Origin: Raillietiella orientalis
Lineage: Eukaryota
DNA length: 64,000 nucleotides
Direction: 5' to 3'
Assembly (NCBI GenBank): GCA_036172245.1
Contig: JAYWIR010000055.1
Span: 1 to 64,000, forward strand
Shown: piece by piece, positions 1 to 31,778 of the stretch
Numbering within the stretch: the first letter of the stretch is position 1
Layout of the letters: each line of letters starts with the position of its first letter
Notes under the pieces: generated by a model
Databases searched by the model: none
Told to the model about the DNA's origin: nothing
The model's input: the letters and a program-made list of their open reading frames with translations, nothing else
Program-made: the position numbers and the translations under genes

Positions 1-540
1 AGTCATGTGGACCACCACGGAGCGGTCCATTGATACTGGCAGGATCTTGCGGCCGTCTACGTTCAGCGGCGCATGGATTAGGCGGTGAGCCAAGGTGACA
101 TCTTTGCAGACCACTTCGACCCGCTGCCCGCCGCTGAGGACGGAGAGGCCGTCCAGATCCTTCTCGGTAACATTCGCGTCCTTCAACGCTTTGCTGAAGG
201 CGCGCGCTGTCCGGCCGTCGAACAAGTTGCCTACCTGGTAGACAAGCGATGGCTTGTACCCGGAGGCCTTGTATGCGGCCATCTCCGCCATGGCTTCTGC
301 GCTGGACGCGGCCACCATGGCGCTCCATGTCCTCGGCGTGGCCGGGGATGATTCCGGGGCGGCTGCCCCTGCTCCAGTAGGCTGTGGGGGCGAACTAGCC
401 TCCCCCACTCCAACCTCCATCGCGGTGTCCTCTGGCGTCGTGGCCATTGGACACCGACGATGTACACAAAACACCACACAGAAGAAAAAGCGCTTTCCTA
501 CTACTCTTTGGGGAGTGAAGGAAAAACACGTCCTCCTACT
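1..540 (-). mobile_element. Tx1/L1-like non-LTR element Z: 5' UTR and ORF1 N-terminus (runs off the window)
   Basis: ATG at 447 (-) opens MATTPEDTAMEVG...AYKASGYKPSLVYQVGNLFD...PLNVDGRKILPVSMDRSVVVHM, clearly homologous to the ORF1s at 7638(-), 12400(-) and 824(+). The 5' motif GGACGTGTTTTT lies at 533-522. 5' boundary approximate. Confidence 0.85.
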
Positions 541-729
541 AACCGCGGAGGGTTCTGGCTGCAACGAGGCTGCCAGCTCCTCCGCGGCTCGCGCGAAGGC
601 TAACTCATCATGGTGCTGTCGATGACGGACACCGCCGCCAGCTCGTTCCCCTCGCTGTTGACAGAGTCAACAGAGGGGTTGTCGTCGGTAGCGGCGAGTT
701 CTTTTGCGCAGCGGTCGGGAATACGCTCG
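541..729 (-). mobile_element. Displaced continuation of element B ORF1 (left of the element A insertion)
   Basis: Removing A and one TSD copy joins 6545 to 738 and restores an open frame: ...EQIKECSVVVERIPDRCAKELAATDDNPSVDSVNSEGNELAAVSVIDSTMMS* (stop 602-600). Confidence 0.7.
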
Positions 730-823
730 ACGACAACGGTGCACGGACGTGTTCTGTGTTGCTCCTCGAGCGTGATTCCTTTCCGTCTTCTTGTGTGTGG
801 TGTGCCCGATTGCGTCCACTAGG

Positions 824-2653
824 ATGTCCACGGAGCCCCTGCAGCAAAAGATGGATGTGGAGGCTGCTACTGGCAGTGGAGACTCTACTGCAGATGTCCG
901 GTCCGCCTCTGATTCTTGTGTCTCGCCACCGGCGAGATGCTTCGCCGCCGTCGTCAAGGCGGCGGCAGCCAACGGAGCACCGTCCGACGAAGCAGAGCTG
1001 CAGGCATATGCAGCCCATGGCTACAAGCCTGCGCTCTGCTCTCCGGTGAGTGCTTCTATCTCCGACGGTGTCGGAGAAAATTTGTTGGACGAGCTTTTGC
1101 GCGTCGGGGTCCGACAGGACGACTTCCTGGCCGTCATGCCGGTTAACGCGCTCGGACACTGGGAGGTGCACTGCAAAGAGGCCCCCCCAGTCCAGCGCCT
1201 TCTTCGCACCCGGCTAAATATCCGCGGGAAGGAGGTCGTCCCGTCGGCCATGGACCAGTCGTTCGTGGTCCGATTATCCGCCCTCCAGGTGGACACGCCC
1301 GATCGCGTGCTTGTCGCTGCAATAAGTGCATTAGCCACGGTGCATGCGCTGTGGAGAGCAGATAATCCGATCAAAAGGATTGCATCTCTCCACAGCGGAG
1401 TTGCCATGGCGCGTGTCACCATGGCGGATAGGAGGCAAATGCCTCCGCACTTGCAGATCGGCGATGCGATCTTCCACCTTGAATTTGCTGGTTAGCGACC
1501 GGCTTGCGGCATTTGCGGTGCAGAGGGCCACCGTCCGTGGACGTGCCCTTCACGCAACTGCCGCTATTGTAAACAGCTCGGCCACTCCATCAAAGAGTGC
1601 GCGGAGCTGAAGAGCAAGCGGCAGGCGAAAAGCCGCAAACAATCGACCCCGTTTGCGCCGAAAAGATCCCCCGTTGTGCCACGGGAGAAATCGGGCGCGA
1701 AGGGCGGGGCATTTTCGAATGGAGGTCCCGCGAAAAAGGACGCGGCGGCTTCAGGGAAGCCACCATCCCAGACAACCGCGCAGACGGGAGGAATGCCACG
1801 TCGTCCTGGGGGCAAATCGCCATCTTCGAAGCAGCCTAAGAGTGCGGGCACGCACTCAATCAAGGCTGCTGAACCGTCCGCGTCCGCTTGTGCGTCCAGC
1901 GGAGCACACGGGAAACCGTGCGCGGGTACCCTCGGAACTGCCTCTTAACGGCAGTCTCCTCCTACGGCGGTGGAGATAACGTCTTCCACGCCGAAGGCAC
2001 GAGCATCGAAGGCTGCAATAGCGCCCCGCGGGACGACGGCAATGACCGCCGTTTCGCCTGCATCGGCTAAGGAGCAGGTGCAGTGCGCAACGGGGACGGA
2101 GACGTCTCCCGCCGCGAGCGAGAAACGTGAGCCGGCATCTCCGGCCAAACAATTGAGGGAGGCGTCGGCCTCCCAGGAGGGCGTCCCCGACGCGGGCTGG
2201 ACTCGAGTCTCCAGGACGCCCACAAAGGGGAAGAAGAAGGTTGACCCTTCAATATTCCCCATCCTTAAGGTGGGTGGGAGGCAAAAGAGAAGCACGCCGA
2301 AGAAGGTGCGTACCCAGGTACGCACTACGGCGGCGTGCTCTGTCTCCGTCGCTTCGCGCGAGAGGGCGGCTGCGGAAGCCAAAGCTCCGGAAGCTGCGTT
2401 GGCGACTGCGACGACCCCTGCGCGGGCAGGGCAAGCCTCCACCTGCCGAAACAAAAAGAGACTGGCAAAACGCCAGTCTCGCGCCAGGCACTCGGACTTC
2501 GAGGTGGAGTCCGAGTGCAAACAAATGGAGCGCGTATCCCGGGGTAAGCCGGTAGCGCGCCGGGCTAAAGTGCGAAGGCACGAGCCTGTTCCCGGAGGCG
2601 GTTCCGGCTCCTGCACGGAGACCGAGGCGATGATCCTCGGCTCCCAGGACTAA
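824..2653 (+). pseudogene. Element A ORF1 (gag-like, two CCHC zinc knuckles, long basic Ala/Ser/Lys tail) with two in-frame stops
   Basis: ORFs 791-1495, 1676-1948 and 1970-2653 are in one frame. Reading through TAG 1493-1495 gives CGICGAEGHRPWTC and CRYCKQLGHSIKEC. A second stop, TAA, is at 1946-1948. Confidence 0.85.
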
Positions 2654-2751
2654 GCTGGGCGCGATGTGGCGGCGAACGGGAGCGATTCCGCTTCCCAATC
2701 CGCTCTCCCACCAGCTGACTTCTTGCCGGACGGGGCGAGGAGCACGCCGTC

Positions 2752-5700
2752 ATGTCCGCAGCAGTGATGCGTGGACTCGCGTCCGCTCGTCGCGTCAGCG
2801 TGGCCTGTTGGAATGTCAACGGGCTACGTGATGCTGACAAAAGGCGGACGGTAGCCAACGCTTTGCGCGCGTTCGATCTGGTGCTGCTGCAGGAGATACA
2901 TATCATCTCCGAACGGCAGGCATCGGATCTGGAAGAGCGCGCGGGCGGGACGCTACACTGGCGGCCAGGCTCCGCGCACACGTGCGGAGTCGCGTTCCTC
3001 GTCCGAGGCAGGGTGGCGAAGGCGGTGCGGAACGTTTGTTCCGACGAGGAAGGTCGTGTGGGCCAACTTGTCCTCAAGTGGTCCGAATCGATCGATCTGG
3101 CCGTTACGAACACCTACGCGCCGAGCGGCGGCCGGCATTACGCCCAGCGACTTGCATTCCTGGGTGGCCTGCGCAGCCCCTGGCTCGCTGACTCCGGCCC
3201 TAACGTGGCGCACCTCCTTGCAGGAGACTTCAACGTCCACCTGCTAACAGAGGAGAGATGCCGCTTGAGGGAGAAGCAACTGGTGAGCGAGGTATGCGCG
3301 TCCGTGCGCGTGCAAAACTGGCTTGCTGGTGAGCCCGGGATGGAGAGATCGCCGGAGCATGCGTTCCTCGATGAACACCTGCTCTCACGAGTAGGTCGGA
3401 GAGGGCGCCTGCTGTCCACGATTTCGGATCATCCGAGACTGGAGTTCGAGCTCCTCCCGCCTGGCAAAGGGCCTCCGATGAATGTCTGGAGGTTGCCGGC
3501 CGACTGGCTTAGCAATTCGGAGGCGGCGGAGCATCTTCGCCAACACCTTCGGGGCTTCGCCATCCGTGAACTCGAGGACTGGGACGATCTGAAAAGATCG
3601 GTCCACGAGTTCTGCTGCCGGTTCCCTTTGCACCTGCTTCCCCGCGGCTTCGGGGAGGGTGTCGCGAACAGCAGATCCTATCTGCAGGCGCGTACCTTCT
3701 CCCGATGCCCGGACGTCCGGCGTCTGGCGGAATACAAGGCCAGGGCCGAGCGCCAGGTTTGGCAGTCTGGAGCGGCTTGTCTGCTCGATGACGCTGGACA
3801 GAAATGCACGGCTGCAGCCGAAGTACACCGCGTAGTCAAGCGCTACTACTCCTCGTTGTACGCGGAGGAGCCCACGGAACGCAGTCTCTCCGAGCTGCTT
3901 CTTCCGACGGGAAACCCTGCTATCGACGAGGAGGAACGCGCCAGATTGGATTGGTTCTTCACGGCGGAAGAAGTATCTTTTGCCATAGCGGGCCTGAAGG
4001 GGCGTAAGGTGCCTAAGGAGGATGGCCTGCCCGCGGATTTCTTTCAGTGCTTCGCGGCGGAGCTCGTCCCTCTGGTGCTAAGCCTTTCCTCGCTGATGCG
4101 TGAGACGGGAGATGTTCCCGCTTCTTTCCGCTCAGCAAAGGTGCGGCTCCTGCCGAAAGGCGGTGATTTGCGCCACCTCAGCAACTGGCGTCCGATCACA
4201 TTGGTGAATTCGGACGTCAAGTTGTTCTCCAGGCTATGGGTCGCGCGCCTGGGGAGAATCGCGGAGTCCTTGGTAAGTCCGGAGCAGACGTATGCTGTTC
4301 CGGGGCAGTCCATGGACGCGAATCTCTTCTTCGCGCGAACATGGTTCGAGTTGCAGCAGCGCGTGTCGCAGCAGAGCCAGGCAGCCGAAATCGCCACTGC
4401 CAAAGGTAAGCGGCGGTGTTCAAGGCACGATGGAACAACGGGAGCCTTAGCGGTCGCCGTCGGTCTCTGCAAAGCGTTCGACAGCGTAAACGAGGACCTT
4501 CTTCTGGAGCTTCTGGGACGCCTAGGCCTCCCGACGCACCTCATCGCCTACTTGCGCTCCTGCTGGCGCCACGCGTTATGCTGTATCTCTTTCAGCGGGC
4601 GCCACGTGTACGGCATTCCCATACGGCGGGGTATCAGGCAGGGAGACAGCTTATGCCCCCTGCTCTTCAGCATCTTCTTTGAGTTGGTGCTGAGGGCGTA
4701 CAGGCTGACGCTGGCCAACCTGCCGAGCTCCTGCCCGGGAACACCGGCCGTGACCGCCTATGCTGAGGACCTTCTCCTGCTGCTGCCCATGTCCACCCCG
4801 GCGTCCAGGCTCGAGGACTTCTTCGAGCTCATTCGTCGGGGAGCGGGCCTGAGCGTCAACAGGACGAAATCAACCGTTCTACCGGTTGGCTGTACGTGGG
4901 AGTGGCAGTCCGACTGGATCCGCCTGGGGATCCCAACGGGCAGGTGCTTGAAGTACCTCGGCGTTCCCTTGGGCGCCTTCTGTCCAGCAGAAGCGTGGTC
5001 GGACTGCCTTCACAAGGCCGAGACCGCTCTGGGCCCGTTCCAAGGCGGCAGGTTTCTCCTGTTGGAACGGGCCTTCGTGTGGAACATTTTCGTTGCCCCC
5101 CTCCTCCGTCCCCTTTTTTTTGTTTGTCCCCCTCCCTACTCGGCTAAGCGCCGGGCGCAACGCCTGTTGCGTGACGCCCTGTGGGGACCGGCGAGGTCCA
5201 GGATCCGCCTGAAGAACTTGGCAGCTCCTCGGCGGGATGCAGGATTGGGCATTCTGATGCTGGAGCGGGTCGGACTGCTAGTGCAGTTCCGCATGCTGGC
5301 ACTTTGTGCGCAGATCTGGACTACTCCCTGGTGTGCTCCAGCGCGGCTGCTGCTGCAGCGCAGCACGGGTGGCGACGGACTACGTTCGTTGCATGTGCGC
5401 ACGGAGCGCGCCCAGAGAGGATTCGGATTCCCTTTGAAGCAGCTCGCCACGCTTGTGGGAAAGCATGAGTAGATCTCCTGCCGGCCGACGAACTTCAACG
5501 CCTGGAGGCAGGAAGCCTTATCGTCCTGGGCAGCGCAACAGGATGTGTCCCGTTTGGAACTCCGTTGCGCGAAACTTTCCCCATACTGTACAGTGGGGGA
5601 GGTGCTGGAAGACCAGGACCAGTGGACACGCCTAGCCGCTACGCCACTCGCCGAAGCACTGTGTGCACTTATGCTGCGAGATGACAGTGACCTGCCGGCG

Positions 5701-6330
5701 AGGTGGGAGATCACTTGCGAAATCGCAGGCGGAACCCGACTGCAGGGCGGCTGGCGGACTTGCGAAGTGGCAGACGCTGCTACACCTCGCATTCTTACAA
5801 AGGGGCTTCTCCGGTATAGTGAGCTCCTCGGGGTGCCCACCGATGAACTTGTGGTCCCTTCTGCGTGTTTGGACGCGACTCTTTTCCCCCTTCGGTGGAA
5901 GCAGGACGCCTTTCTGCTGGTGCATTGGGGTTTGTACTGCAACCAGCGGGCGCACCTGATTTCCGGGGAAGTTGCGTCCCCGAACTGTGCCAAATGCGGA
6001 GCGTTGGAATCGCTCCCGCATTTGCTGTTTGAGTGCGGTGCTCTCCAGGAGCTGTGGCAGCGGCTGTCTTCAGTGCTCCTGCACCCTGGACACACCGCAC
6101 TGGATTGGATGCGCCGCTTCTACACGCGTGGCGCACTTTCTCTTGGAGCGGTCGTCGCAATCATCTGCTGCGTCCGCGCCATTGTCAGGGCCCGCCACGT
6201 ATTGCAGATGCGAGCAGTCCCAACATCGGTCCCCGACACCTCAGCCTGCAGCCTGCAAATGGCTGCCGGTTGGCCACATCTTGGAGCAGAAGTGAGGACG
6301 GAGATCGGCGGCATTCACTGCCGGTTCTGA
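2752..6330 (+). pseudogene. Element A ORF2: AP endonuclease + reverse transcriptase + C-terminal zinc finger, with one in-frame stop
   Basis: EN motifs WNVNG, LLQE, NTYAP, GDFN, SDH. RT motifs WRPITLVNSD, KAFDSV, GIRQGDSLCPLLF, YAED (for YADD), KYLG. C-terminal CAKCGALESLPHLLFEC. TAG 5470-5472 replaces the TGG seen in the copy at ~25109, and the frame continues into 5545-6330. Confidence 0.93.
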
Positions 6331-6544
6331 GAATAGGAACGGTTAGACTGTATACCCCTGTCCCCGCCCTCCCAACCAATTTATTTATTTATTGTCTCAC
6401 CCCCTCCCGTTCCGAACTCTCAGTGTGCCCGGACTGCGTTCCGGGAAATCTACTCCCCATTTTTTGTTTCCCTTGCGTGGGAACACAGTTCCCAGTTAAT
6501 ATTTTAATAAACGTCCCGGCGCAACCGGGTAATAAACGACAACG

Positions 6545-7732
6545 CTGCATTCTTTAATTTGCTCGCTTGCCTGCTCTTTTTTCTGGAGGTACGCGAGCTT
6601 TTTCTCCATCCTCCTCTTCTTCTTTGATTTTTTGGCCGTAGCCACCTGCCACCAAGGCTCCTGGCTAGTTCCCTCGACTTGTTCGGCGTTGTTCGCCGGC
6701 GTCTCGGGTGCGGTCTGGGCCTTGGGCGCGGGTGGCACAGCCTTCGCGGCAGCTTTCGCCGCCAGCCTTTTCTGCAGAAGCCGGGCGCGTTTTCTAAGGT
6801 TTCTCTTGGAAACCACCCGCACTGCTGCTTTTGAACACACATCCCTCGTGTGACCCATTGTGCCGCATACTTGGCACTGCACATTGGGACACCTCTTTTT
6901 GAGGTGGCCCGACGTATTGCAGAAGCCACAGTATTTCGGCTTTCCCACATACCAGAGGTCGACGGTTTCGCCTTCGACCACCAGTTTGTGGGGAAGAGTG
7001 CAGCCCTTTCGAACGGTCACGCGCGCAGCCGTGAGGCCGTGTTGCAGCCCCGTGTAGTCCTCGAAAGGACTAACTTTCGTCCACTGCGCGTGGACCGTTC
7101 CGTATTCCTCCAACGCGGCGCGAACCTGTTCCTTGCGCATCCGCGCGGTAACACCTAACAGGTGGACCACCATGCTGCGGTCCGCCGTAATAGGGAGGAG
7201 CCTGCGCGTTCCCATCACCACGGGGGTTTCAAGCAGTCGTTGGGCCATCCCTGCATGTTTGCAGATGACCCCAACGTACTGACCCCCGCTGCGGATGGTC
7301 ATAGCGCTGAGCTCCTCCTCTTTCACATCGAGAGCGCGCATGCCCTTCGAGAAGGCACGCGCGCTCTCTAAAGAATATAAATTGCCTACCTTGTAGAACA
7401 ATGAGGGGTTGTACCCCTCCTCTACATAGGCCGACAATTCCGCCGCGGCTGCAGGCGATGGCGCCGACACAACGGCGCTCCACGCCCGCGCTGCAGCGGG
7501 GACCGATTCTGTGGGGGCGGATGCCCCCACCTCCATCGCCTCTGGGGACGACGTTGCCGCCGCCCCCTGGCTTTCCATCGCCTCTGGGGGCGGCGTTGCT
7601 GCTGCCCCCTGGCCATCTCTGGTGGTCGCGTCAGGCATTGCTGCCTGATCGACCACCGAACCACACGACGCTTGCACTGGGGGAGACCCTTCGGCACGAG
7701 GAGCACCGAGAAAACACGTCCACCCTGGAGCA
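6545..7732 (-). mobile_element. Tx1-like element B: 5' UTR and ORF1 (interrupted by element A)
   Basis: ORF1 from ATG 7638 with knuckles CGFCNTSGHLKKRC and CQVCGTMGHTRDVC. 5' motif GGACGTGTTTT at 7721-7711. The 5' boundary is set where plus-strand RT homology begins. Confidence 0.88.
7530..7613 (-). repeat. 42-bp tandem duplication in the B ORF1 N-terminus
   Basis: Encodes QGAAATPPPEAMES followed by QGAAATSSPEAMEV. Coordinates approximate. Confidence 0.75.
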
Positions 7733-12490: not shown

Positions 12491-13100
12491 CTAGACGGAC
12501 ACGGGGGAGAGTCAACCTTATTTGTGTCAGGTGCGGGGAGAGAGAATACCTCTCCCACCTGTCATTGCATTGTGTTGACCTCCGGCCCCTGTGGGAACGC
12601 TTTGCCGCGGCCCTAAGTATATCCGGAGGCAACCCCAGAGACGCTTTGCGCCCCCTCTTCGTCCGTGACGCCCTGCCTCCGACGGCCTTGCTTGCAGTCC
12701 TGTGCTGCCTACGCGGGATCGTCGTGGCATGGAGCAAAGCGACGGGAGGAACCGGTGACAGGGATGGTAGCGAATACGCCGCCCGCTTCATGGGGATGGC
12801 GACGCGATGGCCCCATCTGGAACCAAGTACCCATCAACAGCTTGCCGGCATCCTCCAAAGGATGACGGACCCTCCCAGCAGATAGTGATCTCTTCTTCTT
12901 CCCTCCACAATTTGGTTTGGTTTTTTATTTTCTTTTTGTTTCATTCCCCCTCCCCTCTGCTGCCGAGGTCGGCCGCACCGGTCTGCGCACCGGGTGCTCG
13001 GCAGGCTGATAGTTTCTAGGGCATGGCTGGTCTACTGTTGCAGCCACAGTTTATATAGGTTTGTTCGCAAGAATAAACGTCCCGGCGCAACCGGGTTTCA
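12491..13100 (+). mobile_element. Tx1-like element Q: ORF2 C-terminus and 3' UTR
   Basis: CVRCGEREYLSHL..HCVDLRPLWERF...RWPHL, homologous to P. AATAAA plus terminal hairpin CCCGGCGCAACCGGG at 13081-13095. Confidence 0.85.
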
Positions 13101-13104
13101 ACTG

Positions 13105-14800
13105 AAACCGCAGAGCCGTCGCATGAAAACTGCGGCAACGACGCGAGCAGCAGCGACGAGAAAAATTTCGAGAAGGCGGCGGAGGAATTAGCGGCGAGCT
13201 TAAAAAGGAGGTGTGTGGTAGATGCAAAGTGAGGGGTGGGAAGCGGTTGTTCTGTTTTTGGCTCGCTGGAAAAGAATTTTGTTGTGTGGAACTATCTGTG
13301 GTGTGTGAACCGCTCGCCACAGGTGGAGCTTCGCATGGTGTTTCGATCAAATCGGAGATGTTTTCGAGGAAGCACACTTCAGTGGAATATTTTTCGCTAA
13401 AGGAGTTGCGGAAGCACGGATGCAACCGTTGAGGGATAGCTTCTCGAAGGGCACAAGTTGTTCTAAGGAGAATATAAGGTGGGTTTTGGGCAGTAATAGG
13501 ATACTTTGTAGTTTCTTCTAGAGATGAAAAAGAGATACTGCAGTTTGGTGGAGACACAGAAAGGCATGGTTCGAGGGAAGAGTTTGTCTCAGGATTAGAT
13601 TGAACAGGATTAAATGGGGACTGAATAAATGCCTCATTCTTAAGTTTTTCCATTCGAATAGGGGAAGAGCGAGCACTAGAACGTGCAGGAAGTTGTCTTG
13701 TTATTGGGGATTTCCTGCAGGCTGAAGATGATTCATGTTCCCAGCTCGGGAGAAAGCTATGAAAAGATTTCCTAGGCATTACTCGGGCTGGCGTTTTAAG
13801 ATGTCTGCATATGAGGAAAGAGATAACGGAGCTTTCAATGTGGCAGATGGAGTACCACCACTAGGGTTAAGTGTTGAACGGAGTTTCTTGGTCATCGGAT
13901 GAATATCTTGTTTGCTCTCTATCTTCGAAGTAGCGTCATCGTGGGAGCATGCAGAGAATTGGGCAGAAATTTCGCTTCGAATTTCCAGAGGGATAGGTTG
14001 AAACGCATCTTCATTATCCAAAAAATTTTCACAGCTTCCTCAGGAGAAGGAGAGGATGGATTCGCAGCGTGAGTCGCAGGGTTAAAAGAGGTTGTTCGAG
14101 GATGTCGCTCGAGGTTGTACATGACGCTGTTTGTGAAGATTGAAGGAAGTTTGAGTCTTCTAGGGATTTAAGCAGGATATCGTCTCCCAGCTGTTCAAAA
14201 AACTCTGAATGACTTGGGCCGGCTTACTCATCAAGAAGTTCAAACTCAGATAGTTTCTTAAATTTTGATGTGCCATGCACACTTTGGTTGTTCTTCACGC
14301 GAAAACCTTTGCGGTCGAAGCTAGAGGGACAGAACGTACAGGGAAACTTTAAATTTTTCAGGGGGAGTGGAAGTTCTAATGCTCGAATGGATTGAATGCA
14401 CTTATGGGAAGCAAGAGAATATTTCAGAGGGTCGGCAGTAAAGTTGCATTCATTACAAAAGTAAAAAGTAATTTGGGGGTTTACACCATGGATGCGTGAG
14501 ATACGGTGCTTCAGGCTTCTAAAGCGATTGTAGGTTTCTTCAGCTGAGGAAGCAAACTTCTATCTCTCGATCGGACATAGGCATGGTCGTGGGAGGGAAA
14601 CACGTAGATATAGGCATCTGTCGGAGTCTAAGAAATTGGGCTTGGAAGACGGCTTTAAATTTTCCATGCTGCACATGTCATGAGACAAACAAAATTACAT
14701 CGGACATAAGGTCAGTGGACATCCTTAGGAATTACTGCGAAATCTTCAGAAGTTCAGACGCGATCGCAAGCGCCATGGACATGGTAAAAAAGAAAGTTTT
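13105..14800 (-). mobile_element. 5' fragment of a probable R2/NeSL/Utopia-type non-LTR element (three N-terminal zinc fingers + Ser/Pro-rich linker), decayed
   Basis: From ATG 14667(-): ...CPIER*...SLKHRISRIHG, FCNECNF...ASHKC, FPCTFCPSSFDRKG...VHG, followed by broken S/P-rich ORFs (14122-13051). No RT is visible, so the clade call rests on the zinc-finger layout only. Confidence 0.5.
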
Positions 14801-15316
14801 CCGGAAACGAGAGACAGCGCGTGAATACTCCTGTATACACTAGCAGTATATATGCGCAATACAGGTACGCTACCATGCCTAGCGCGCGGTGCGTATGTTT
14901 TACGAGCATGCCATGTGGCCGCGCCGCCATCTTGGAAAATATCGCACATTCATTCAACATCAGGCATTGTACGTAAACCCACTTTTCATGCACAATATTG
15001 CAAAGCATCAAATGTTTTGAAAATGAGCGCAAACTTAGCATAAATCAAACCTATGCAATGTCTTGATAGCGACAAAGCAAAAACTCTTACCTTGGCCAGC
15101 CAACAGCTCTCTAGTTAAACTATAGCAGCTGCGGGCGACCAGAGGGAAATCCGTATTTTCGCAACACTAACTAACGTATCACGCTAATTTTCCGTATACA
15201 GCTAGAGTACGTATATAAATATTAGAAAACAGTAAATGATCACAAGTCGTGGCGAGAAAAGTTTTGAACACTACTTGAACTTCTACATAGCGGAGCTAGG
15301 TTCAAACACGTCTTGC

Positions 15317-16887
15317 CGTACAGGCTAACGCTGGCCAACCTGTCCAGGAACTCCGGCCATGGCCGCCTATGCTGACGACCTACTTCTCCTGTTTCCCATG
15401 TCCACTCCGGCGTCCAGTCTGGAAGATTTCTTCGACCTCATCCGTCGGGCAGCGGTCGTGAGCGTCGACAGGACGAAATCCCTCGTCGTGCTGGTTGGCT
15501 CTACGTGGGACTGCATCCGCCTGGGGATCCCTACGGGCAGGTGCTCTAAGTACCTCGGCGTTCCCTTGTACGCCTTCTGTTCAGCAGAGGCGTGGTCGGA
15601 CCGTCTTCAAAACGTGGAATTGGCGATCGACCCGTTCCGGGACGGCAAGTTTTACTTGCGGGAACGGGCCGCGGTGTAAAACGCCTTTGCAGCCCGTCTC
15701 CTTCGCCCCCTACTTTTTGCGTGCCCCCTCCACAAATTATTACACGGACAAGGGGCCTCATACGGAAAGCCCTCTGGGGCGATCGGAGGCCCCGCGTCCG
15801 GTTTAAAGACTTGTGCGCTCCCCGCAGAGACGGTGGACTTGGTGACTTGGTCTCCTGAAGTTGGAGCGCATAGAGCGCCAGCTTCAATTTAGAAAACTTG
15901 CCCTTGTGGCAAAGTATTGGACAGCACCCTGGTGTGCGCCGACAAGACTCCTCGCTCACAAGGCAACCGGCTGCTTCGGATTGACCTCAATCCTAGTAGC
16001 CAACGACCGTAGCCTGAACCATTGTGGGTTTCAGCTGCGCGATTTGGTTGCCCTGTTGAGAGACAATCCTTGGATCTCCTGCATCCCTGCGGACTGGACT
16101 ACCTGGCTCCTGGAGTCCGTTTCCGCGTGGGGGAAAATAAACGGCTCTAGCGATGAGGACTTCTCCTGCCTCCGTAGAGGCAGGTACGCTGGTCAGCCAC
16201 TGCAGGAGATCGTTTGCAACCCACGGAAACTTCTGTGGGCTTCCTTCACCCCCCTTGCCCCCGTGCTGCCCTTCCTTACAGAAGCTAGGGACAGCCAAGA
16301 GGAGGCTTGTTACGAAGTGTCTTGCCTCATCGGAGGCAGGAAAAAACCAATGAAGGTGTGGACTTCCCGGGAACTAGCGGACGCTACAACCCCAAGTGTC
16401 CCGCCAAATGAAATTGTGCGCTGGGGCGAGCTGCTCGGCATGCCTCCGGAGGAGGTGAAGTGGCCCCCGGCGTATTGGGACAGTGGCACCCTCCCTTTGG
16501 ATTGGCAGGAGATGGCGCTGCTTGTGCTCCATTGGATACTTTTGAGAGGAGCACGCCTGTCTCACTGGACATTGGGGAGATTGGATGCCCATTGTACAGT
16601 GTGGGGAAAGGGAGACCTTTCCCACTTAATAATCGAATGTGTTGCCCTCCTCCGCACGTGGGATCGACTCTCGTCGGCCATAAACGTAGCGGTGGGCGAC
16701 CCTAAAAACATTTTTCGTCGCCTCTTGATGCGGAACTCCCTGCCAGGTGCCGCGTGTGTTGCGATTCTCTGCTGCATACGAGGAATGTTGGACAAGTGGA
16801 ACGCGTCGATAAGAGGCCACAGTAGTCTTTATTATGTAATTTTGTAAACAGTTATAATAATTAATGCCCCGGCATATCTGGGTGATA
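15317..16887 (+). mobile_element. Tx1-like element D: 3' half of ORF2 and shortened 3' end
   Basis: AYADDLLLL, KYLGVP, TAPWCAP, WGELLG. Stop at 15677. Ends CCCGGCATATCTGGGTGATAA. Confidence 0.88.
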
Positions 16888-16899
16888 AACTTTCAGTCA

Positions 16900-18563
16900 T
16901 GGGGATTCGCTGAGGATCCCCACAGGCGCGTACATCAGGTACTTTGGCGTTCCACTGGGGACTTCTGTCCAACAGAATCCTGGTCGGTCGGTCCGCCTGT
17001 AGTTGGCAATCGGCCCGTTCCTGGGAGGCAAGTTTCACTTGCCGCAACGGTCCGCAGTGTGAAACGCGTTTGTGGCCCGCTTCCTTGTCCCCTACTTTTT
17101 GTTTGCCCCGCCCACCCAACATGGAAAAAAGCACGGAGGACCTCCTGAGGAAAGTCCTTTGGGGCACAGGGAGGTCTTGGGTTCGTTTAAAAGACTTGGG
17201 CGCTCCACGCAGGGACGGTGGACGCTGGAGCGCATGGAGCTGCAATTTCGAAAATTCGCCCTTGCGGCGAATTTGTGGACAACGCCATGGTGCGAACGCG
17301 CACTCCCCCTCCCCAGTAGAGCGACCGGCTGCGAAGGATTGCCTTCGACTGTCGTGGCCTACGACCGCAGCCTGAGGCACTGTTGCCATCAGCTGCGCGG
17401 CATGGTTACCCAGTGCAGGAGAGCACGTGGATCTCCTGCGTCCTCGTGAACTGTACTGCCTGGCTTCAGGAGCGTCAGTTTCCGCATGGGAAAAGATCAA
17501 CGGCTCGAGCGAGCCGGACTACGCATGCCTCCGTAGAGGCAGGTACGCTGGACAGCCCCTGCAGGAGATTGTAAACAACCCACGCAAGTTGGGCTGTGGG
17601 CTTCTTCTACCCCCTTGCCCCCGTGCTGTTCTCCCTCAGGAACGCTAGGGACAGCAACGAACGAGCATCGTGGGAAGTGCCCTGCCTCATTGGAGGCAGG
17701 AAAAGACTGTTCAAGTCATGGACAACTCGGCAGCTAGTGGATGCTGAGACCCCGAGCGTCCTGCCTAAAGGACTTCTGCGCTGGGCGAGCTGCTCGGAAT
17801 ACCTCCGGAGAATTTGAAGTGGCCCCCAGCGCGTTAGGACAAAGGCACCCTTCCCCTGAAGTCGCAGGAGACGGCGTTGCTATTCTTGCATTGGGGAATC
17901 CTATGCAGAGTGCGCCTGTATCACTGGACACTGGGGAATGTGGATGCACGCTGCATCGAGTGCGGCGAAAGGGAAACCTTTCCGCATCTGATAATAGTCT
18001 CTGTTGACCTCCGTGTAGTTTGGGATCGGTTTTATTTGATCCTACAAATTCCGGTAGGCAATCCGAAGAACATTTTCCGCCGCCTCTTCCGGAGTGATGC
18101 CCTGCCCATAGCTGCATCTGTAGCAGTTTTCTGCTTGCTACGCGGAATCCCTGCAAGATGGAACGCATCAATAAGAGGCCACAATAGCAGGATGCCATCC
18201 ACTTGGCGTCCATGGCCTTCATGAAGATCGCCGCCCGATGGTCCGACTACGGAACATTCTGTCAACACTTGTCAGCATCCGGAACAGGATGCAGAGGAGC
18301 ACTCCAGGTGACCGTTGATCTCTTCCCTGCCCTCTTCTCCCCGAAAAAACATTTCTCTCCTTTTTTTTGAATTTTTTGTATATTTTTTTCCCTGGTTTTC
18401 TCTTCCCCACCGTCTATAGAGAGGACCTCACCAGTCTGCTCACCAGTTAAGACAAGTGTTTCGCAAAGATGGAACCAAGCGTTCCACCTCAAACATTTTT
18501 ACGATTTTATTAAAAAATTCATGAAGTTCTAACAATAAATGCCCCAGCAAATCTGGGTGATAA
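16900..18563 (+). mobile_element. Tx1-like element E (same family as D): 3' part, heavily frameshifted
   Basis: Shares long nucleotide blocks with D (e.g. gcctccgtagag..ggcaggtacgctgg). CIECGERETFPHL. Ends AATAAATGCCCCAGCAAATCTGGGTGATAA. Confidence 0.85.
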
Positions 18564-18574
18564 ACTTCCAGCCG

Positions 18575-19008
18575 TGCGCTGGTCATAGACCCATCTGCAC
18601 TCGACGTTGCTGGACGAGGTTGCCCCGTGACAGCCATAGTTGCACGATTACGTCCTGAAGCTGCTGATGCTGTTGCTGCAGTAGGATGCTCTCGGAATCT
18701 CAGCGCAGGTTGAACTGAGAAAGAGTTCCTGGACCGAATGATCAATCTGCTCAGCTGTAGCTATGTTGTCCCTGTTGTCCAATACACCAAACAGTGCTTG
18801 CAGAAACAGGACACAGACGTATCTTGGGAACGCTACTTTGGGGTGAATGTTTTAGACGTGATCGTCATACTCTTTGGAGTTCTACCAGCTGTTCCCACCT
18901 ACGGTACAGAACGAAGAGGTCACAGGCAGCATGCATGCTGAAGGGCAGAACGACCCTGTCTTTGAATTCACTGTTTACTGCAAAGCCAATTGCATAATGG
19001 TGGTTTGA
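18575..19008 (+). pseudogene. NELFCD: Decayed 3' fragment of negative elongation factor C/D (TH1-like)
   Basis: Across stops and frameshifts: HSTLLDEVAP*QP*LHDYVLKLL...[96 protein letters not shown]. This is colinear with the NELF-C/D C-terminus as I recall it (LLDRMVHLLSRGYVLPVV...DTDISLIRYF...EGEHDPVTEFIAHCKSNFIM). Confidence 0.85.
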
Positions 19009-19204
19009 GCTCATCCGTGGATGCAAGTGCGAGAAAGATGAGATGGATGCCGCTGTTGTGACATGCCGGCAGAATGTCAACTTCCTTTCAGCACGACTTC
19101 CACCCTCCCCATCTCCAGATCTGGAGACAGGCATGATTCCGCATAACTGGAGGCTGTAACTGCAAAATCTTGTACAAATGACATTTTTATCTGGTTTCAG
19201 CACC

Positions 19205-19983
19205 TGTGATGCAGAGGTATGCTGTGGCCCCCAGCGTGCCGGAACAGTGCTACCCTCTTCCTAAAGTGGCAAGAGGCGGCAATTCTGCTGTTCCATAGAG
19301 GCCTCTCGTACAACGCCCGTTTACACCACTGGAACCATGGGGGGGGAGGTGAACCCCAACTGCGGCAGTTGCGGCGATAGAGTCCCTTCCGCACCTGCTC
19401 ATGGACTGCATTGCCCTACGCCCTCTGCGGCAGAAGGCGTCTTCGCCGAGTGCCTGGAGATCCCCAAGGGCAACCCCGGAGGAGTTTCGAAACGCTTCTT
19501 CCTGCGCGGCGCGTTCCCCCACGCCGGCCGCATCCCCAGCAGCCCTCTGCTTGCTACCTCCACGGCGGAACCGTGGTTGCGTGCAGCAATGCGAGAGGAG
19601 GCCAGGATGACAGGGACGCCAATTATTGGGTGCTCCTCTTCTTGATGGTAGCGTCAAGATGGCCCCATCTGGGAATCCTGAGACAGCGAAATTGCAGGCA
19701 TCCTGGCAAGACGCAGAAGACGCCCTCTAGCATCCGGTGATCCCTTCCAGAACATTCCCAATTTTTCTTATTTTTGTATGTATTTTTGCATTTATTTTTA
19801 TTTTTCTTTGTTCCACCTCCACCCTCGTTCCTTCTCTACCGAAAGCGAACTTTGCCGGACTGCATGCTGGCACTCGGCAGGTTCCCATGATTGCATTTGT
19901 GACGTGGTAGGGCCAAGCATCCTGCCATCGACATCTACGTTTATTTCATATAAATAGACACCCCGGCGCAACCGGGTGTCAAG
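19205..19983 (+). mobile_element. Tx1-like element F: ORF2 C-terminus and 3' UTR, decayed
   Basis: LKWQEAAILL, NCGSCGDR..PHLLMDC, RWPHL. Terminal hairpin CCCGGCGCAACCGGG at 19962-19976. Confidence 0.8.
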
Positions 19984-19989
19984 CCACTT

Positions 19990-20655
19990 GCTTTTGAGAA
20001 TTGCTATGCCTTCCAGGAACCATGGAGGAGGAAACTGGCAGCAGCACTCGTGCACCAGGAGGACACCGGTTGAGGCGCGCTGCGTCGGTTCTTCGCGCAG
20101 GGAGGACTCTCGACTAGTACGATGGTCGCAACGATGGATGGTTGCATCCGTACTATCATCACGGCCCGCCATGTGCTCGAGACGACCACGCAGCGAATGG
20201 AGGTTACCGGGATGGCAGACGCCTACATGGGTACGGCTGCAAAGTGGACTCACCTGCAAGAAGAAGTGAAGGAGGAGATGGCCGGCTCCTGTTTGAGGGT
20301 GGCTAGGAATGGCAGGCACCGGCGACCTTTGTCCTCTGCCTCCCTTTATTTTTTCTTCCCATTCCTCATTTCCATTCGCTCTGTTTCTTATCCAGTATAT
20401 TTTTTTTCGATCCTGATGTACACGGAGCCAACCCAAAGATCCCTGTCCCACCCCACTGCATTTATTTCATTCCATTTTATTTCTTTATTTATTTGTTGTT
20501 CCCGCTTCGCACTCCCGTGCCGGTCTTTCCGTTATCCCCGACCTGCGTGTCGGTGTACCCTTCCCTTAAACTTCTTTCGCCGTCGGCTGGGAACCAGCGC
20601 GCTCCCGACTGGTTTGTCTTTTACCAAAGGAACGCCCCAGTGCGACCGGGTGAGG
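19990..20655 (+). mobile_element. Tx1-like element G (A-related): ORF2 extreme C-terminus and 3' UTR
   Basis: CIRTIITARHVL...AAKWTHLQEEV matches A CVRAIVRARHVL...AAGWPHL. Hairpin CCGAC-CTGCGT-GTCGG at ~20538-20553. Degenerate terminal hairpin at ~20637-20651. Confidence 0.7.
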
Positions 20656-20845
20656 AACCTCTCCGTGCCTGTCCACGGATGAATCCGGGAGCTTTGGGGT
20701 TTCCCACATCCGCTTCTTCCGGGGAGGCGGTTGGGCTGCGTTCCTTGCACGCTGCGAGCAAATGCCTGCGACTCGCGGCGCGTCCTCGCAACCGGAAGTC
20801 AGACGGCGGCGACCGACGAAGACGGGCTTGGGAGGAAAGGGCGGG

Positions 20846-21796
20846 TCAGCACCTGGGTACGCCGGGGCCTTTATTATGGACTCTGTTTTACTTGGTAGAA
20901 GGCCCCACGGCCAACACAACGCCGGAACTGCCGGGACGCAGCCCGGCGTGACTCTCCTCGGCAGTGGAAGGGGATGGAGGAGAGAACAACAAAAAAAATT
21001 AAACATAAGGAAAAGAAAAAGAGTTTGGAGGGGCAGGATGGGATTACAGGCCACAGAGAAGAGGATCCATCCTTCGCAGGATGCCCTCGAGATCCTTCCT
21101 CATTCGTCCCAGTTGGGGCCATACCGTTGCTCTCACCATAAAGCGAACAGCATACGGGATGACGTCCCTCTCGTTACCATCTTCGTCGTGGTCATCACTC
21201 CAAGCCACCACGATGCCTCGAATGCAGCATAGTGCTGCCACGGCTGCGGCTGGCTGCAAGGCGTCCCGCACGAAGAGAAACCGGAAAACGTCTCTGGGTT
21301 CGCTCCCCACCGGAAGCCCGAGGATCGTCCCAAACCGTTCCCATTAGGGTCGGAAGGCAGCACAATCAACGATGAGGGGGGAAGCGATTCTCGCTTCCTA
21401 CACCTGGCACAATCAGGATGTACTCTACCTCGCGTCCAGTGGAAGCGGCGCGCGTTGCAGGGTAGACCCCGATGCAACAGCAGCAGCGCCGACTCTTGCC
21501 ACTTCAGGGGGAGAATCCTGGATCCTTGCAGCAGTGGGGGCCACTTCAGGTCATCCGTCGGGATGCCGAGCAGCTCGTCCCATCTCATCAGTCCATGCGG
21601 AAGGACACTCAGGGTCGTGGCATCCGCCAGTTCTCCCATGATCCAGCCGCTTAACTTCTCTCTGCCTGCGATCCGACAGCCACTTCGGCGTTGGTCCGCT
21701 GACGATGGTTTTCCGTAGGAAGGGCAGTTCCGTAGCTAAAGGGGTGGTCTTTACTCACGTTCTACTGCTGGAACACTGCAGAATGGTCCCCAGGGT
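20846..21796 (-). mobile_element. 5'-truncated Tx1-like element H (P family)
   Basis: Closely similar to 8870-9840. Candidate degenerate 14-bp TSD GAGGAAAGGGCGGG (20832-20845) / GAGGAAAAGGCAGG (21797-21810). Confidence 0.85.
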
Positions 21797-22480
21797 GAGG
21801 AAAAGGCAGGAGGGGGGATAACGGCGTGGTTACGTCGAATGGAATGCTCCCGAGACACGTCGGGGCAGGTCCGAAGAGCCGCTACTGTTTGCGGGGAAGA
21901 CAGGAAGGGGGAAGGAGGAAGAAAATGAGCTGAGGGTGCGCTTACGTTCACATCTGAGTACGAAAAAGGACTTCCGGGTTGTGCGGATTCCCCAGAGAGG
22001 TAGGCTGGACCGAGGAGGCGGACCTTCCCGAGCAAAAGCCTTCCCTGGGTTCCCGGAGACGGGAAATGGTGGAAAGGTGGGTGGATCCATCCAGTCGTCC
22101 GTACTTGCCGCAGGTAGCGCGGAACCGCGCCCGACCTGCGCACGCGCCGCGGAGTCGCAACCGACGGACACTCCCCGGGAACTTTGCTGGGCGAGAGAGA
22201 AAGTCCCGCCGCGTGTCGAACCGGAGGAAGTTCTCCGGTGATCCCGCAAAGGACACTCGGGATGCGCGGGAACGGGGCACGAAAGCTGCTTCACCTGCAG
22301 GCGGATGGCCCGTAGGCGAATAGCAGGGAGCTGTGTCCTTGCTTTCCGGCACTGGGAACGGCCATCGAGGGAATTCCTGGAGTTCTTCTGACCGCCTTGA
22401 GCGGAGTGCATCCACGGGGTTTCCGAAGGAGGAAGCCCTTGAGGACCTCCCGCGGGGAGAATTGAGAGAGACGAGACGAG
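21797..22480 (+). mobile_element. Possible low-complexity ORF1 tail of a further Tx1-like element (continues 20656-20845)
   Basis: GC-rich, broken A/S/R/K/P-rich frames similar in character to 1600-2650. No diagnostic motif. Confidence 0.3.
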
Positions 22481-23494: not shown

Positions 23495-23565
23495 AGGAGG
23501 AGGAGGATGGGAAGAGGAGGAGAGGGGGAGAAAGAGAAGAGGAGGGAGAGAAACAGAAGAAGAAT
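23495..23565 (+). repeat. Purine-rich (GA) low-complexity tract
   Basis: ggaggaggaggatgggaagaggaggagagggggagaaagagaagaggagggagagaaacagaagaagaa. Confidence 0.7.

Positions 23566-28873: not shown

Positions 28874-31778
<2,905 letters not shown>

What the first reader, a model, noticed from the sequence alone, without database searches (positions are those of the whole stretch)
1..22480. Right arm of a ~10-layer nested retrotransposon stack with an age gradient (persistent insertion growth point)
Seen: A is inside B (9-bp TSD, and the B frame is restored on removal). Moving right, every minus-strand element shows only its 5' half (Z, B, C, the ZF element) and every plus-strand element only its 3' half (P, Q, D, E, F, G), abutting with little or no spacer. 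Lesions increase outward: the B ORF1 is open and A has no frameshift, while E, F and G are shattered. Inference: each new element landed inside the previous one near a centre left of the window, so only right halves are visible. Several diverged families hitting one focal point repeatedly, beside a compact TE-poor gene region, suggests a chromatin- or element-directed trap (piRNA-cluster-like, centromere-like, or TE-into-TE targeting). Target specificity is an established trait of many Tx1-clade elements.
Basis: partly seen in the sequence, partly recalled or inferred. Interest (0 to 1): 0.8.

Follow-up and report, generated by a model that had tools for sequence, protein, structure and literature searches.

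The report
Deep one-sided stack of nested LINEs
The first 21 kb of the window is a pile of related LINE retrotransposons, each apparently inserted into the one before it, youngest at the left edge; this is a deep example of ordinary transposon nesting, and the other half of the stack lies outside the window.

Summary
Positions 1-20658 hold about 12 pieces of one L1/Tx1-like LINE clade. Its 5' ends carry GACGTGTT-N8-GCTCC. Its 3' ends carry AATAAA, a 5-bp hairpin and AAC, with no poly(A).

- Element A (739-6535) sits in ORF1 of B with a perfect 9-bp TSD, and removing it reopens B's frame.
- At nine further junctions an intact terminus of the left element abuts an internal break of the right element.
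- Coding lesions rise outward, from 0-0.4 to about 10 per kb (trend p=1e-4).

- G is a minus-strand, 5'-truncated copy with its own putative TSD, so it is not a layer.
- An extra 3' fragment, N, lies between the NELF piece and F.
- The NELF piece is a processed-pseudogene fragment.
- The "ZF element" has only the clade's 5' signature and no recognisable protein.
- A carries two in-frame TAG stops.
- F has a single lesion.

Serial nesting fits best, and a depth of 10 with one side insertion is rare under uniform random insertion (P<=0.005). The left arm could not be examined: no genome is held, no runs were listed, and no metagenome match was found. The nine target sites read share no motif by eye, so Tx1-style site specificity is not supported. 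The "trap" idea remains conjecture.

The parts
1..539 (-). Z: 5' UTR and N-terminal 149 codons of ORF1 (ATG ~447) of a LINE; cut by the window edge. Its 5' end abuts B about 60 nt after B's ORF1 stop.
   Evidence: tblastn; 5' signature at 511-532; open frame with 0 lesions in 441 nt
540..738 (-). B, left piece: last ~45 codons of ORF1, its stop (~603) and ~60 nt beyond. Includes the left TSD copy of A (730-738).
   Evidence: Frame restored after in-silico removal of A; B ORF1 C-terminus matches C ORF1 to the end
739..6535 (+). A: full-length LINE. ORF1 824-1945 has a CCHC knuckle and a TAG at 1493. ORF2 2719-6327 has APE and RT domains and a TAG at 5470. The 3' hairpin is at 6515-6530. The 9-bp TSD is ACGACAACG.
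   Evidence: Pfam RVT_1 2.6e-16, Exo_endo_phos 1.1e-11, zf-CCHC 2e-4; TSD; nearest solved structure is human LINE-1 ORF2p, E=3e-38
6545..7727 (-). B, right piece: 5' UTR and most of ORF1 (ATG 7641), open. The intact 5' end abuts P. The right TSD copy of A lies at 6536-6544.
   Evidence: 5' signature at 7700-7720; junction
7728..9843 (+). P: 3' part of a LINE, from about ORF2 residue 582 (RT 'AFD' motif) to the 3' hairpin plus AAC. 6 lesions in 1.86 kb.
   Evidence: Pfam RVT_1 positions 107-202
9844..12491 (-). C: 5' part of a LINE, comprising the 5' UTR, ORF1 (12397-11186) and ORF2 residues 4-312 (APE). 4 lesions in 2.1 kb. Its left side is broken at P's 3' end.
   Evidence: 5' signature at 12464-12484
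12492..13102 (+). Q: last ~0.6 kb of a LINE (ORF2 C-terminal zinc-finger region, 3' UTR, hairpin at 13081-13096).
13103..15320 (-). Its right end carries the clade's 5' signature (15292-15312) and abuts D. No recognisable ORF1, ORF2 or Pfam domain.
15321..16890 (+). D: 3' part of a LINE, from about ORF2 residue 668 to the hairpin (16868-16883) plus GATAAAC. 3 lesions in 1.46 kb.
16891..18565 (+). E: 3' part of a LINE related to D (70% nt), from about ORF2 residue 736. 13 lesions in 1.34 kb.
18566..19150 (+). NELF-C/D processed-pseudogene piece. Residues 493-542 and 545-589 of human NELF-C/D are contiguous with one frameshift between them. It has its own stop at 19006, ~140 nt beyond that, and no poly(A). 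The right boundary is uncertain by about 80 nt.
   Evidence: Pfam TH1 3e-15; PDB NELF-C/D matches at 2e-12 and 2.5e-9
19151..19984 (+). 5 frameshifts in 0.48 kb. Its 3' end abuts F.
19985..20658 (+). F: last ~0.67 kb of a LINE (from the H..C part of the ORF2 zinc finger to the hairpin at 20636-20651). 1 stop in 306 nt. Outermost layer seen; it sits in unclassified GC-rich DNA (H).
20846..21797 (-). G: 5'-truncated copy of P's family (76% nt) with its intact 3' end on the left. Putative degenerate TSD at 20831-20845 and 21793-21809. A separate insertion, not a nest layer.
25096..26178 (+). A2: 5'-truncated copy of A's family (91.5% nt, 87% aa, open frame) with a perfect 11-bp TSD, AAACAACCCTT (25085-25095 and 26175-26185). 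Shows that ordinary 5' truncation occurs in this clade.

Best explanation
Positions 1-20658 are the right-hand side of a serial nest of non-LTR retrotransposons. All belong to one L1/Tx1-like clade but to at least eight diverged families. Each element entered by ordinary target-primed reverse transcription into the body of the element that had arrived before it.

The order was: F into unclassified DNA (H), then N (with a NELF-C/D cDNA piece), E, D, X, Q, C, P, B, and finally Z and A into B, 200 bp apart. Seen from the right, each inserted element shows its intact right terminus, and each host shows only what lay to the right of the insertion point.

Shown:
- A lies in B with a TSD.
- Intact termini sit at internal breaks at nine further junctions.
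- Coding damage rises outward.

Inferred:
- The missing left parts lie left of the window. Several may be short stubs, because plus-strand hosts such as Q, N and F were probably already 5'-truncated.
- The depth reflects a regional bias of insertion, or of survival of insertions, toward the youngest resident copies rather than sequence-specific targeting.
For: - A in B: perfect 9-bp TSD, and B's frame is restored.
- The 5' signature GACGTGTT-N6-10-GCTCC is found only at the 5' ends of A, Z, B, C and X: 5 of 5 hits in 64 kb, against 0.005 expected per 26 kb. Each lies about 6 nt from a junction.
- The 3' hairpin plus AAC lies at the right end of P, Q, D, E, N and F, directly followed by an internal position of the next element.
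- Lesions per kb:
  - Z 0
  - A 0.42 (two stops, over 4.73 kb)
  - B 0 (frame open)
  - P 3.2
  - C 1.9
  - Q 0 (only 0.33 kb)
  - D 2.1
  - E 9.7
  - N 10.3
  - F 3.3 (only 0.31 kb)
- Trend tests: Poisson trend p=1.2e-4 and Spearman 0.78, p=0.013, over 9 pieces without A and X. D is younger than E, p=0.007. The group {P,C,Q,D} is younger than {E,N,F}, p=1.2e-4.
- Simulation of uniform random insertion. A run of >=10 openings with <=1 side insertion occurred in 0 of 3000 islands for each of 12, 15, 20 and 30 elements. The rate was 0.001 for 60 elements, 0 of 600 for 120, and 0.005 for 300.
Against: - The left arm is not in the window, so no TSD and no host continuity is shown for any layer except A.
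- X lies inside D but looks more decayed or foreign (GC 0.45, no ORF longer than 111 aa). This fits the age order only if X is a non-coding or divergent relative.
- All 9 right arms are short, 0.6-2.65 kb. If hosts were full-length (5.8 kb) and hit uniformly, a maximum of 2.65 kb or less has probability about 9e-4 (my arithmetic, from no call). Either hosts were truncated or insertion points are biased.
- P is no younger than C (3.2 against 1.9 lesions per kb, p=0.53). F has few lesions, so the gradient is stepwise rather than strict.
- Lesion counts rest on alignment to proteins only 33-50% identical.
- The simulation's null model is simple.
Confidence: 0.6

Rival explanations
1. One-sided pile without a mirror arm. 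The elements did insert one after another, but the hosts' left parts were never there or were lost. Possible causes are already 5'-truncated hosts, target-site deletions at the second junction, or later deletions. On this view the region is an ordinary decaying TE island beside genes with no special growth point.
For: - 5' truncation with an intact TSD is documented in this clade (A2, and probably G).
- All nine right arms are under half an element length (coordinates).
- Q, N and F (0.6-0.8 kb) are in the size range of the free-standing truncated copies A2 and G (about 1 kb).
Against: - Minus-strand B, C and X keep intact 5' ends and lack 3' parts, which 5' truncation cannot produce.
- Losing each of their left parts separately needs several independent deletions that each end exactly at a later element's terminus.
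- The simulation shows the depth is unusual for unbiased insertion.
Confidence: 0.2
2. Fewer events than layers. Adjacent pieces are single composite insertions. The minus|plus pairs (B|P, C|Q, X|D) would arise by twin priming (5' inversion). The plus|plus pairs (D|E, E|NELF, NELF|N, N|F) would arise by reverse-transcriptase template switching.
For: - The NELF cDNA piece has no poly(A) and runs into a LINE 3' fragment.
- Elsewhere in the piece, in-frame stops seen by eye in one unaligned frame hint at heavy decay like that of N (10.3 lesions per kb).
- A clade that ends in a hairpin rather than poly(A) is unlikely to copy an mRNA except by template switching (inference).
- Twin priming gives exactly a minus-oriented 5' segment abutting a plus-oriented 3' segment (recalled, from no call).
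Against: - B has 0 lesions in 1.23 kb and P has 6 in 1.86 kb (p=0.047).
- D has 3 lesions in 1.46 kb and E has 13 in 1.34 kb (p=0.007).
- X differs sharply from D in composition (GC 0.45 against 0.56).
- These pairs therefore differ in age or origin.
- Three inverted segments all reaching the exact RNA 5' end would be unusual.
Confidence: 0.1
3. Assembly chimera: the stack is an artefact of joining reads from different copies of related repeats.
For: The region is repeat-rich, and no read data could be laid on it. No runs were listed.
Against: - Mis-joins arise within shared homology. Here every junction joins an element terminus to a non-homologous internal position of another family.
- A has a perfect TSD.
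- Most pieces are only 66-76% identical to one another at the nucleotide level, too diverged to collapse.
Confidence: 0.05

Closest known systems
Nested retrotransposon clusters of plant genomes (maize and other LTR-retrotransposon nests)
   Same: New elements sit inside older ones. Inner elements are younger. Genes lie beside TE blocks. Nesting is used as a relative clock. PMC6911290 (abstract seen in the search listing) reports that nesting is common and that some families hit specific regions of other elements. PMC2774510 appeared in the search listing only.
   Different: The elements here are non-LTR (LINE) elements without LTRs, so age cannot be read from LTR divergence. Only one arm is visible. 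The depth of about 10, with a single side insertion, is larger than uniform insertion gave in simulation.
Tx1-clade LINEs that target other transposons (Tx1 in Tx1D; crocodilian Tx1-Mar in Mariner-N4_AMi; Tx1-8_Crp and Tx1-4_AMi in LTR retrotransposons)
   Same: These are APE-type LINEs of the L1/Tx1 group that land inside other mobile elements (PMC4494074, passages read).
   Different: Those families recognise a defined target sequence. Here the nine target sequences read at element 3' ends (A, A2, P, Q, D, E, N, F, G) share nothing beyond a possible A/AC start by eye. Insertion points also fall in different parts of the host elements: ORF1 end, RT, APE and ORF2 C-terminus. Membership of the Tx1 clade itself was not tested.
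Drosophila piRNA clusters such as flamenco and 42AB ('transposon traps'; recalled, from no call)
   Same: Dense, nested, mostly defective TE fragments from many families at one locus.
   Different: No small-RNA or chromatin data are available. Orientation is mixed (8 plus and 5 minus pieces, counting A2 and G), unlike a uni-strand cluster. The innermost copies are nearly intact rather than fragments.
Drosophila telomeric HeT-A/TART arrays (PMC1636488, abstract seen in the listing)
   Same: In the plus|plus part (D|E, N|F), the intact 3' end of one element is joined to the truncated 5' side of the next, as in terminal additions.
   Different: Four minus-strand elements (Z, B, C, X) are joined by their 5' ends, which priming from a chromosome end cannot give. 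A is an internal insertion with a TSD.
L1 twin-priming inversions (recalled, from no call)
   Same: A minus-oriented 5' segment abuts a plus-oriented 3' segment, as at B|P, C|Q and X|D.
   Different: The paired segments differ in lesion load or composition, so they are not one event.

Membership tests
APE-type non-LTR retrotransposon of the L1/Tx1 group | ORF2 with an N-terminal apurinic-like endonuclease and a reverse transcriptase | tested here: met
   A ORF2: Exo_endo_phos 1.1e-11 and RVT_1 2.6e-16. Best solved relative is human LINE-1 ORF2p at E=3e-38, against R2 at 5e-13. Weak zf-RVT match in the C-terminus, E=0.01, below the cut-off.
APE-type non-LTR retrotransposon of the L1/Tx1 group | ORF1 with CCHC zinc knuckle(s); target-site duplication; frequent 5' truncation | tested here: met
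   zf-CCHC 2e-4 in A ORF1. TSDs of 9 bp (A) and 11 bp (A2). A2 and G are 5'-truncated.
Tx1 clade proper | RT phylogeny places the element inside Tx1 rather than L1 | not testable with these tools
   No named reference RT sequences were available. The protein search gave only 9 unnamed or distant hits at <=30% identity. The ESM Atlas could not be reached.
Tx1 clade proper | Sequence-specific target (snRNA or rRNA gene, microsatellite, or a particular transposon site) | tested here: not met
   Nine target sequences read at element 3' ends show no shared motif by eye. Break points fall in different domains of the hosts. No Rfam family or tRNA is present in the window.
Nested TE insertion | Inner element has both termini, flanked by a TSD, and the host sequence is continuous once it is removed | tested here: met
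   Met for A in B only.
Nested TE insertion | The same criteria for the other ten layers (Z, B, P, C, Q, X, D, E, NELF-psi/N, F) | tested here: inconclusive
   The right terminus is intact at an internal host position for each layer. The left terminus, TSD and host continuity lie outside the window. No genome, no runs listed, no metagenome match.
Nested TE insertion | Inner elements are younger than outer ones | tested here: met
   Lesion density rises outward: Poisson trend p=1.2e-4 and Spearman 0.78, p=0.013, over 9 pieces. The rise is stepwise. X could not be scored. P against C is not ordered (p=0.53).
piRNA cluster / centromeric TE island | Small-RNA production, H3K9me3 or CENP-A occupancy | not testable with these tools
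   Sequence only. No runs could be listed.
Telomere-type terminal LINE array | All elements in one orientation, each joined by its 3' end to the truncated 5' end of the previous one | tested here: not met
   Z, B, C and X are in minus orientation and are joined by intact 5' ends.
Twin-priming inversion | The inverted 5' segment and the direct 3' segment come from one RNA, so they share family and age | tested here: inconclusive
   B has 0 lesions in 1.23 kb and P has 6 in 1.86 kb (p=0.047). X GC is 0.45 against 0.56 for D. C|Q has no statistical power. No overlapping sequence exists to compare families.

The most novel reading that the evidence does not exclude
The locus is a self-renewing insertion hot spot. 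A freshly inserted, still nearly intact LINE copy (open or transcribed chromatin, or a replication or repair feature it creates) attracts the next LINE insertion of any family of the clade, without sequence specificity. One genomic point has thus captured about ten successive elements, and the three youngest (Z, A, B) lie within 200 bp of each other's insertion points.
Probability: 0.2. Interest if true: 0.6.

Novelty: new member of a known kind. Interest (0 to 1): 0.35.

Why it matters
If the left flank mirrors this arm, the locus gives a clean relative chronology of at least eight families of one LINE clade in this genome. It would also be an unusually deep LINE-into-LINE nest. That would point to a regional bias of insertion, or of survival of insertions, toward the youngest resident copy. 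Such a locus would be a natural place to test chromatin-directed LINE integration or the birth of a TE-trap or piRNA-type locus. If the flank does not mirror it, this is an ordinary decaying TE island next to genes. Either way, the exact 5' and 3' terminal signatures defined here make annotation of this clade simple.

Tried and rejected
SEARCHES THAT GAVE NOTHING
- Whole genome: none is held, so the left flank could not be read.
- Public runs: none was listed for window:12001-22000. One search was a one-base size slip. No reads were laid.
- The exact 25-nt 3'-end pattern had 0 matches in metagenome contigs.
- Earlier findings of the scan: nothing by place, sequence or words.
- ESM Atlas: unreachable three times.
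- Protein homologues of A ORF2: 9 hits, all <=30% identical, one named (a Trametes hypothetical protein). No help with clade or host.
- Rfam (E<=0.1) and ARAGORN: no hits in 64 kb.
- X: no Pfam hit even at E<=5 apart from sub-threshold zinc-binding noise. No match to an ORF1 profile built from A, B, C and Z. No tblastn match.
- B ORF1 against solved structures: only a CCHC-knuckle match, AIR2, at E=0.007.

IDEAS CONSIDERED AND SET ASIDE
- A telomere-type terminal array does not fit, because four minus-strand elements are joined by their 5' ends.
- Insertion at a fixed distance from a landmark does not fit, because the right arms are too short for it.
- A TSD for E ('TTTCAGTC' and 'TTCCAGCC' at 16891 and 18566) is probably E's own coding sequence plus coincidence.
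- CpG decay cannot serve as an age clock, because CpG o/e is about 1 in every layer.
- GC content falls only loosely outward, from 0.61 to 0.54, with X an outlier.

Full report
WHAT IS THERE

The first 26 kb of the window are GC-rich (0.51-0.63), against 0.30-0.47 in most of the gene-bearing remainder. Pfam scans of all stop-to-stop frames of 60 aa or more in 1-26 kb found only four things:
- a CCHC knuckle (1496-1945, +);
- APE plus RT (2719-5469, +);
- the C-terminal half of an RT (7832-8767, +);
- a NELF-C/D (TH1) fragment (18714-18938, +).

tblastn of the full-length element's proteins against the window gave the map, refined by nucleotide self-comparison and further in-window queries. One clade of L1/Tx1-like LINEs accounts for nearly everything up to 20658. 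Two further copies lie at 20846-21797 and 25096-26178. No copy was found in the 38 kb of genes to the right. Those genes include a TPR/kinesin-light-chain-like exon, a methyltransferase and an EFR3 exon, so the host is probably an animal.

TERMINI OF THE CLADE

Aligning ends shows a shared 5' signature, GACGTGTT-N6-10-GCTCC, about 6 nt from the 5' end.
- It occurs 5 times in 64 kb, only at the 5' ends of A, Z, B, C and X.
- Chance expectation is 0.005 hits per 26 kb.

The shared 3' end has no poly(A). It consists of AATAAA, a 5-bp hairpin (CCCGG..CCGGG) and a few bases ending in AAC. The hairpin is kept in 9 copies, with one compensatory pair. These signatures let every boundary be placed to within a few bases.

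THE OBSERVATION, CHECKED

A (739-6535) is full length and is flanked by ACGACAACG at 730-738 and 6536-6544. Removing it extends the minus-strand frame of B from 443 to 473 codons. This gives an ORF1 of about 410 codons with its own stop at about 603.

To the left, Z's 5' end (about 539) abuts B some 60 nt after that stop. Z then runs off the window.

To the right, each of these junctions joins an intact terminus on its left to an internal break on its right:
- B 5' end | P at the RT 'AFD' motif (7727/7728)
- P 3' end | C at about ORF2 residue 312 (9843/9844)
- C 5' end | Q, 35 nt before the C-terminal CxxC (12491/12492)
- Q 3' end | X (13102/13103)
- X 5' end | D at about residue 668 (15320/15321)
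- D 3' end | E at about residue 736 (16890/16891)
- E 3' end | NELF cDNA piece (18565/18566)
- N 3' end | F within the zinc finger (19984/19985)

F's 3' end (20658) meets unclassified GC-rich DNA.

CORRECTIONS
- G is on the minus strand with its intact 3' end facing left. It is 76% identical to P's 3' part and has a putative degenerate TSD. It is a free-standing 5'-truncated copy and contradicts the stated rule.
- A2 likewise has a perfect 11-bp TSD.
- A further 3' fragment, N (about 19150-19984), lies between the NELF piece and F.
- The NELF piece is cDNA-like. Residues 493-542 and 545-589 of human NELF-C/D are contiguous with one frameshift, followed by the natural stop and about 140 nt, with no poly(A). 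Because this clade ends in a hairpin, a template switch from N's RNA to a NELF mRNA is a plausible origin. This is an inference.
- X, the 'ZF element', has the clade's 5' signature, but its 2.2-kb body has GC 0.41-0.48. It has no ORF longer than 111 aa and no match to Pfam, to an ORF1 profile or to ORF2. 'Zinc-finger/RLE element' is unsupported.
- A has two in-frame TAG stops.

AGE ORDER

A frameshift-aware alignment to A's ORF2 or B's ORF1 counted stops plus frameshifts per kb:

| Piece | Lesions per kb | Note |
|---|---|---|
| Z | 0 | |
| B | 0 | frame open |
| A | 0.42 | two stops over 4.73 kb |
| P | 3.2 | |
| C | 1.9 | |
| Q | 0 | only 0.33 kb |
| D | 2.1 | |
| E | 9.7 | |
| N | 10.3 | |
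| F | 3.3 | only 0.31 kb |

- The outward trend is significant: Poisson p=1.2e-4 and Spearman 0.78, p=0.013, over 9 pieces. A was left out because it is a side insertion, and X could not be scored.
- Z, A and B together have 2 lesions in 6.4 kb, against 32 in 7.9 kb for the rest (p=8e-7).
- D is younger than E (p=0.007), and the middle group is younger than the outer group (p=1.2e-4). P against C is not ordered (p=0.53).
- The gradient is stepwise, not strict.
- CpG o/e is about 1 in all layers, so CpG decay gives no clock.

INTERPRETATION

Plus-strand 3' pieces alone would be trivial, because 5' truncation is normal for LINEs and is documented here by A2. Two things are not trivial.
- The minus-strand B, C and X keep exact 5' ends but lack 3' parts.
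- Every plus-strand piece begins exactly at another element's terminus.

Serial insertion of each element into the previous one explains all of this. I considered other explanations.
- Twin priming for the minus|plus pairs and template switching for the plus|plus pairs. These predict equal ages, which B|P (p=0.047) and D|E (p=0.007) do not show. X and D also differ in composition. NELF|N remains a good candidate for a chimera.
- A telomere-type terminal array cannot attach elements by their 5' ends.
- Assembly chimeras join within homology, not terminus to unrelated internal site.

In a simulation of islands grown by uniformly random insertion (half the elements truncated), a run of >=10 openings with <=1 side insertion was rare:
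- it was never reached in 3000 trials each for 12, 15, 20 and 30 elements;
- the rate was 0.001 for 60 elements;
- it occurred in 0 of 600 trials for 120 elements;
- the rate was 0.005 for 300 elements.

If the nest is real it is therefore non-random, although the null model is simple and this window was picked for looking unusual.

WHAT IS NOT SHOWN

The mirror arm. No genome is held, no sequencing run was listed, and the 3'-end pattern has no metagenome match.

All nine right arms are short, 0.6-2.65 kb. For full-length hosts hit uniformly, the chance that all are 2.65 kb or less is about 9e-4 (my arithmetic). Several hosts were therefore probably already truncated, and their predicted '5' halves' may be short stubs. 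Alternatively, the left parts were deleted.

The target sequences read at nine element 3' ends share no motif by eye beyond a possible A/AC start that overlaps the element's terminal AAC. The break points fall in different domains of the hosts. No snRNA, rRNA or tRNA is present.

Sequence-specific targeting is documented for many Tx1-clade families, some of which land in other transposons (PMC4494074, passages read). It is not supported here. Whether the clade is Tx1 rather than L1 could not be tested. The nearest solved relative of ORF2 is human LINE-1 ORF2p. The only database homologues are 30% identical or less.

VERDICT

This is a real, unusually deep LINE-into-LINE nest seen from one side, with the expected age order. 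It is a known kind of structure, since nested TE clusters are common (PMC6911290, abstract seen in the listing). The 'persistent growth point' idea is permitted by the data but untested. Interest is moderate.

Noticed in passing
window 18566-19984: A NELF-C/D processed-pseudogene fragment (last ~98 codons contiguous, one frameshift, natural stop at 19006, no poly(A)) runs directly into a LINE 3' fragment (N). This may be a template-switch chimera made by a LINE whose RNA ends in a hairpin rather than poly(A).
   Followed up: partly
window 6491-6535, 9799-9843, 13058-13102, 16846-16890, 18521-18565, 19940-19984, 20614-20658, 26134-26178 (+); 20846-20890 (-): All nine 3' ends of this LINE clade share AATAAA, a 5-bp GC hairpin and a terminal AAC, with no poly(A). 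One base pair shows a compensatory change (G-C to A-U in E). This suggests a 3' stem-loop recognised by the reverse transcriptase ('stringent' type).
   Followed up: partly
window 746-765 (+); 511-532, 7700-7720, 12464-12484, 15292-15312 (-): A conserved 5'-terminal signature, GACGTGTT-N6-10-GCTCC, lies about 6 nt from the 5' end of five elements from different families. It is absent elsewhere in the 64 kb. It may be an internal promoter or initiator element.
   Followed up: partly
window 13103-15320: Segment X has the LINE 5' signature at its right end, but its 2.2-kb body has a GC content like the gene region (0.41-0.48) and no recognisable coding capacity. It could be a non-autonomous relative, a divergent family or a much older copy. 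The last option would conflict with its nested position inside D.
   Followed up: partly
window 1493-1495 and 5470-5472: Both premature stops of the otherwise frame-intact element A are TAG. The related copy A2 has TGG at the position matching the second stop.
   Followed up: no
window 1-26000 vs 28000-60000: There is a strong compositional contrast. LINE layers have GC 0.54-0.63 and the gene region averages 0.42. CpG o/e is about 1 in the TE layers and 0.81 in the gene region, so there is no sign of methylation-driven CpG loss in the TEs.
   Followed up: no
window 20659-20845 and 21798-25095: The outermost host DNA (H) of F, G and A2 is GC-rich (0.55-0.66), with long overlapping open frames on the minus strand. 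It has no Pfam, LINE or in-window repeat match, so its nature is unknown.
   Followed up: partly
window 30419-30802 (-), 43423-44241 (+), 51953-52198 (-): Gene fragments lie to the right of the pile: a TPR (kinesin-light-chain / NPHP3-like) exon, a SAM-dependent methyltransferase ORF of 273 aa, and an EFR3 armadillo-repeat exon. No LINE piece of this clade was found in these 38 kb.
   Followed up: no
window 22598-22634 and 42130-42186: Two short near-perfect palindromes (37 and 57 nt) turned up in the self-comparison.
   Followed up: no
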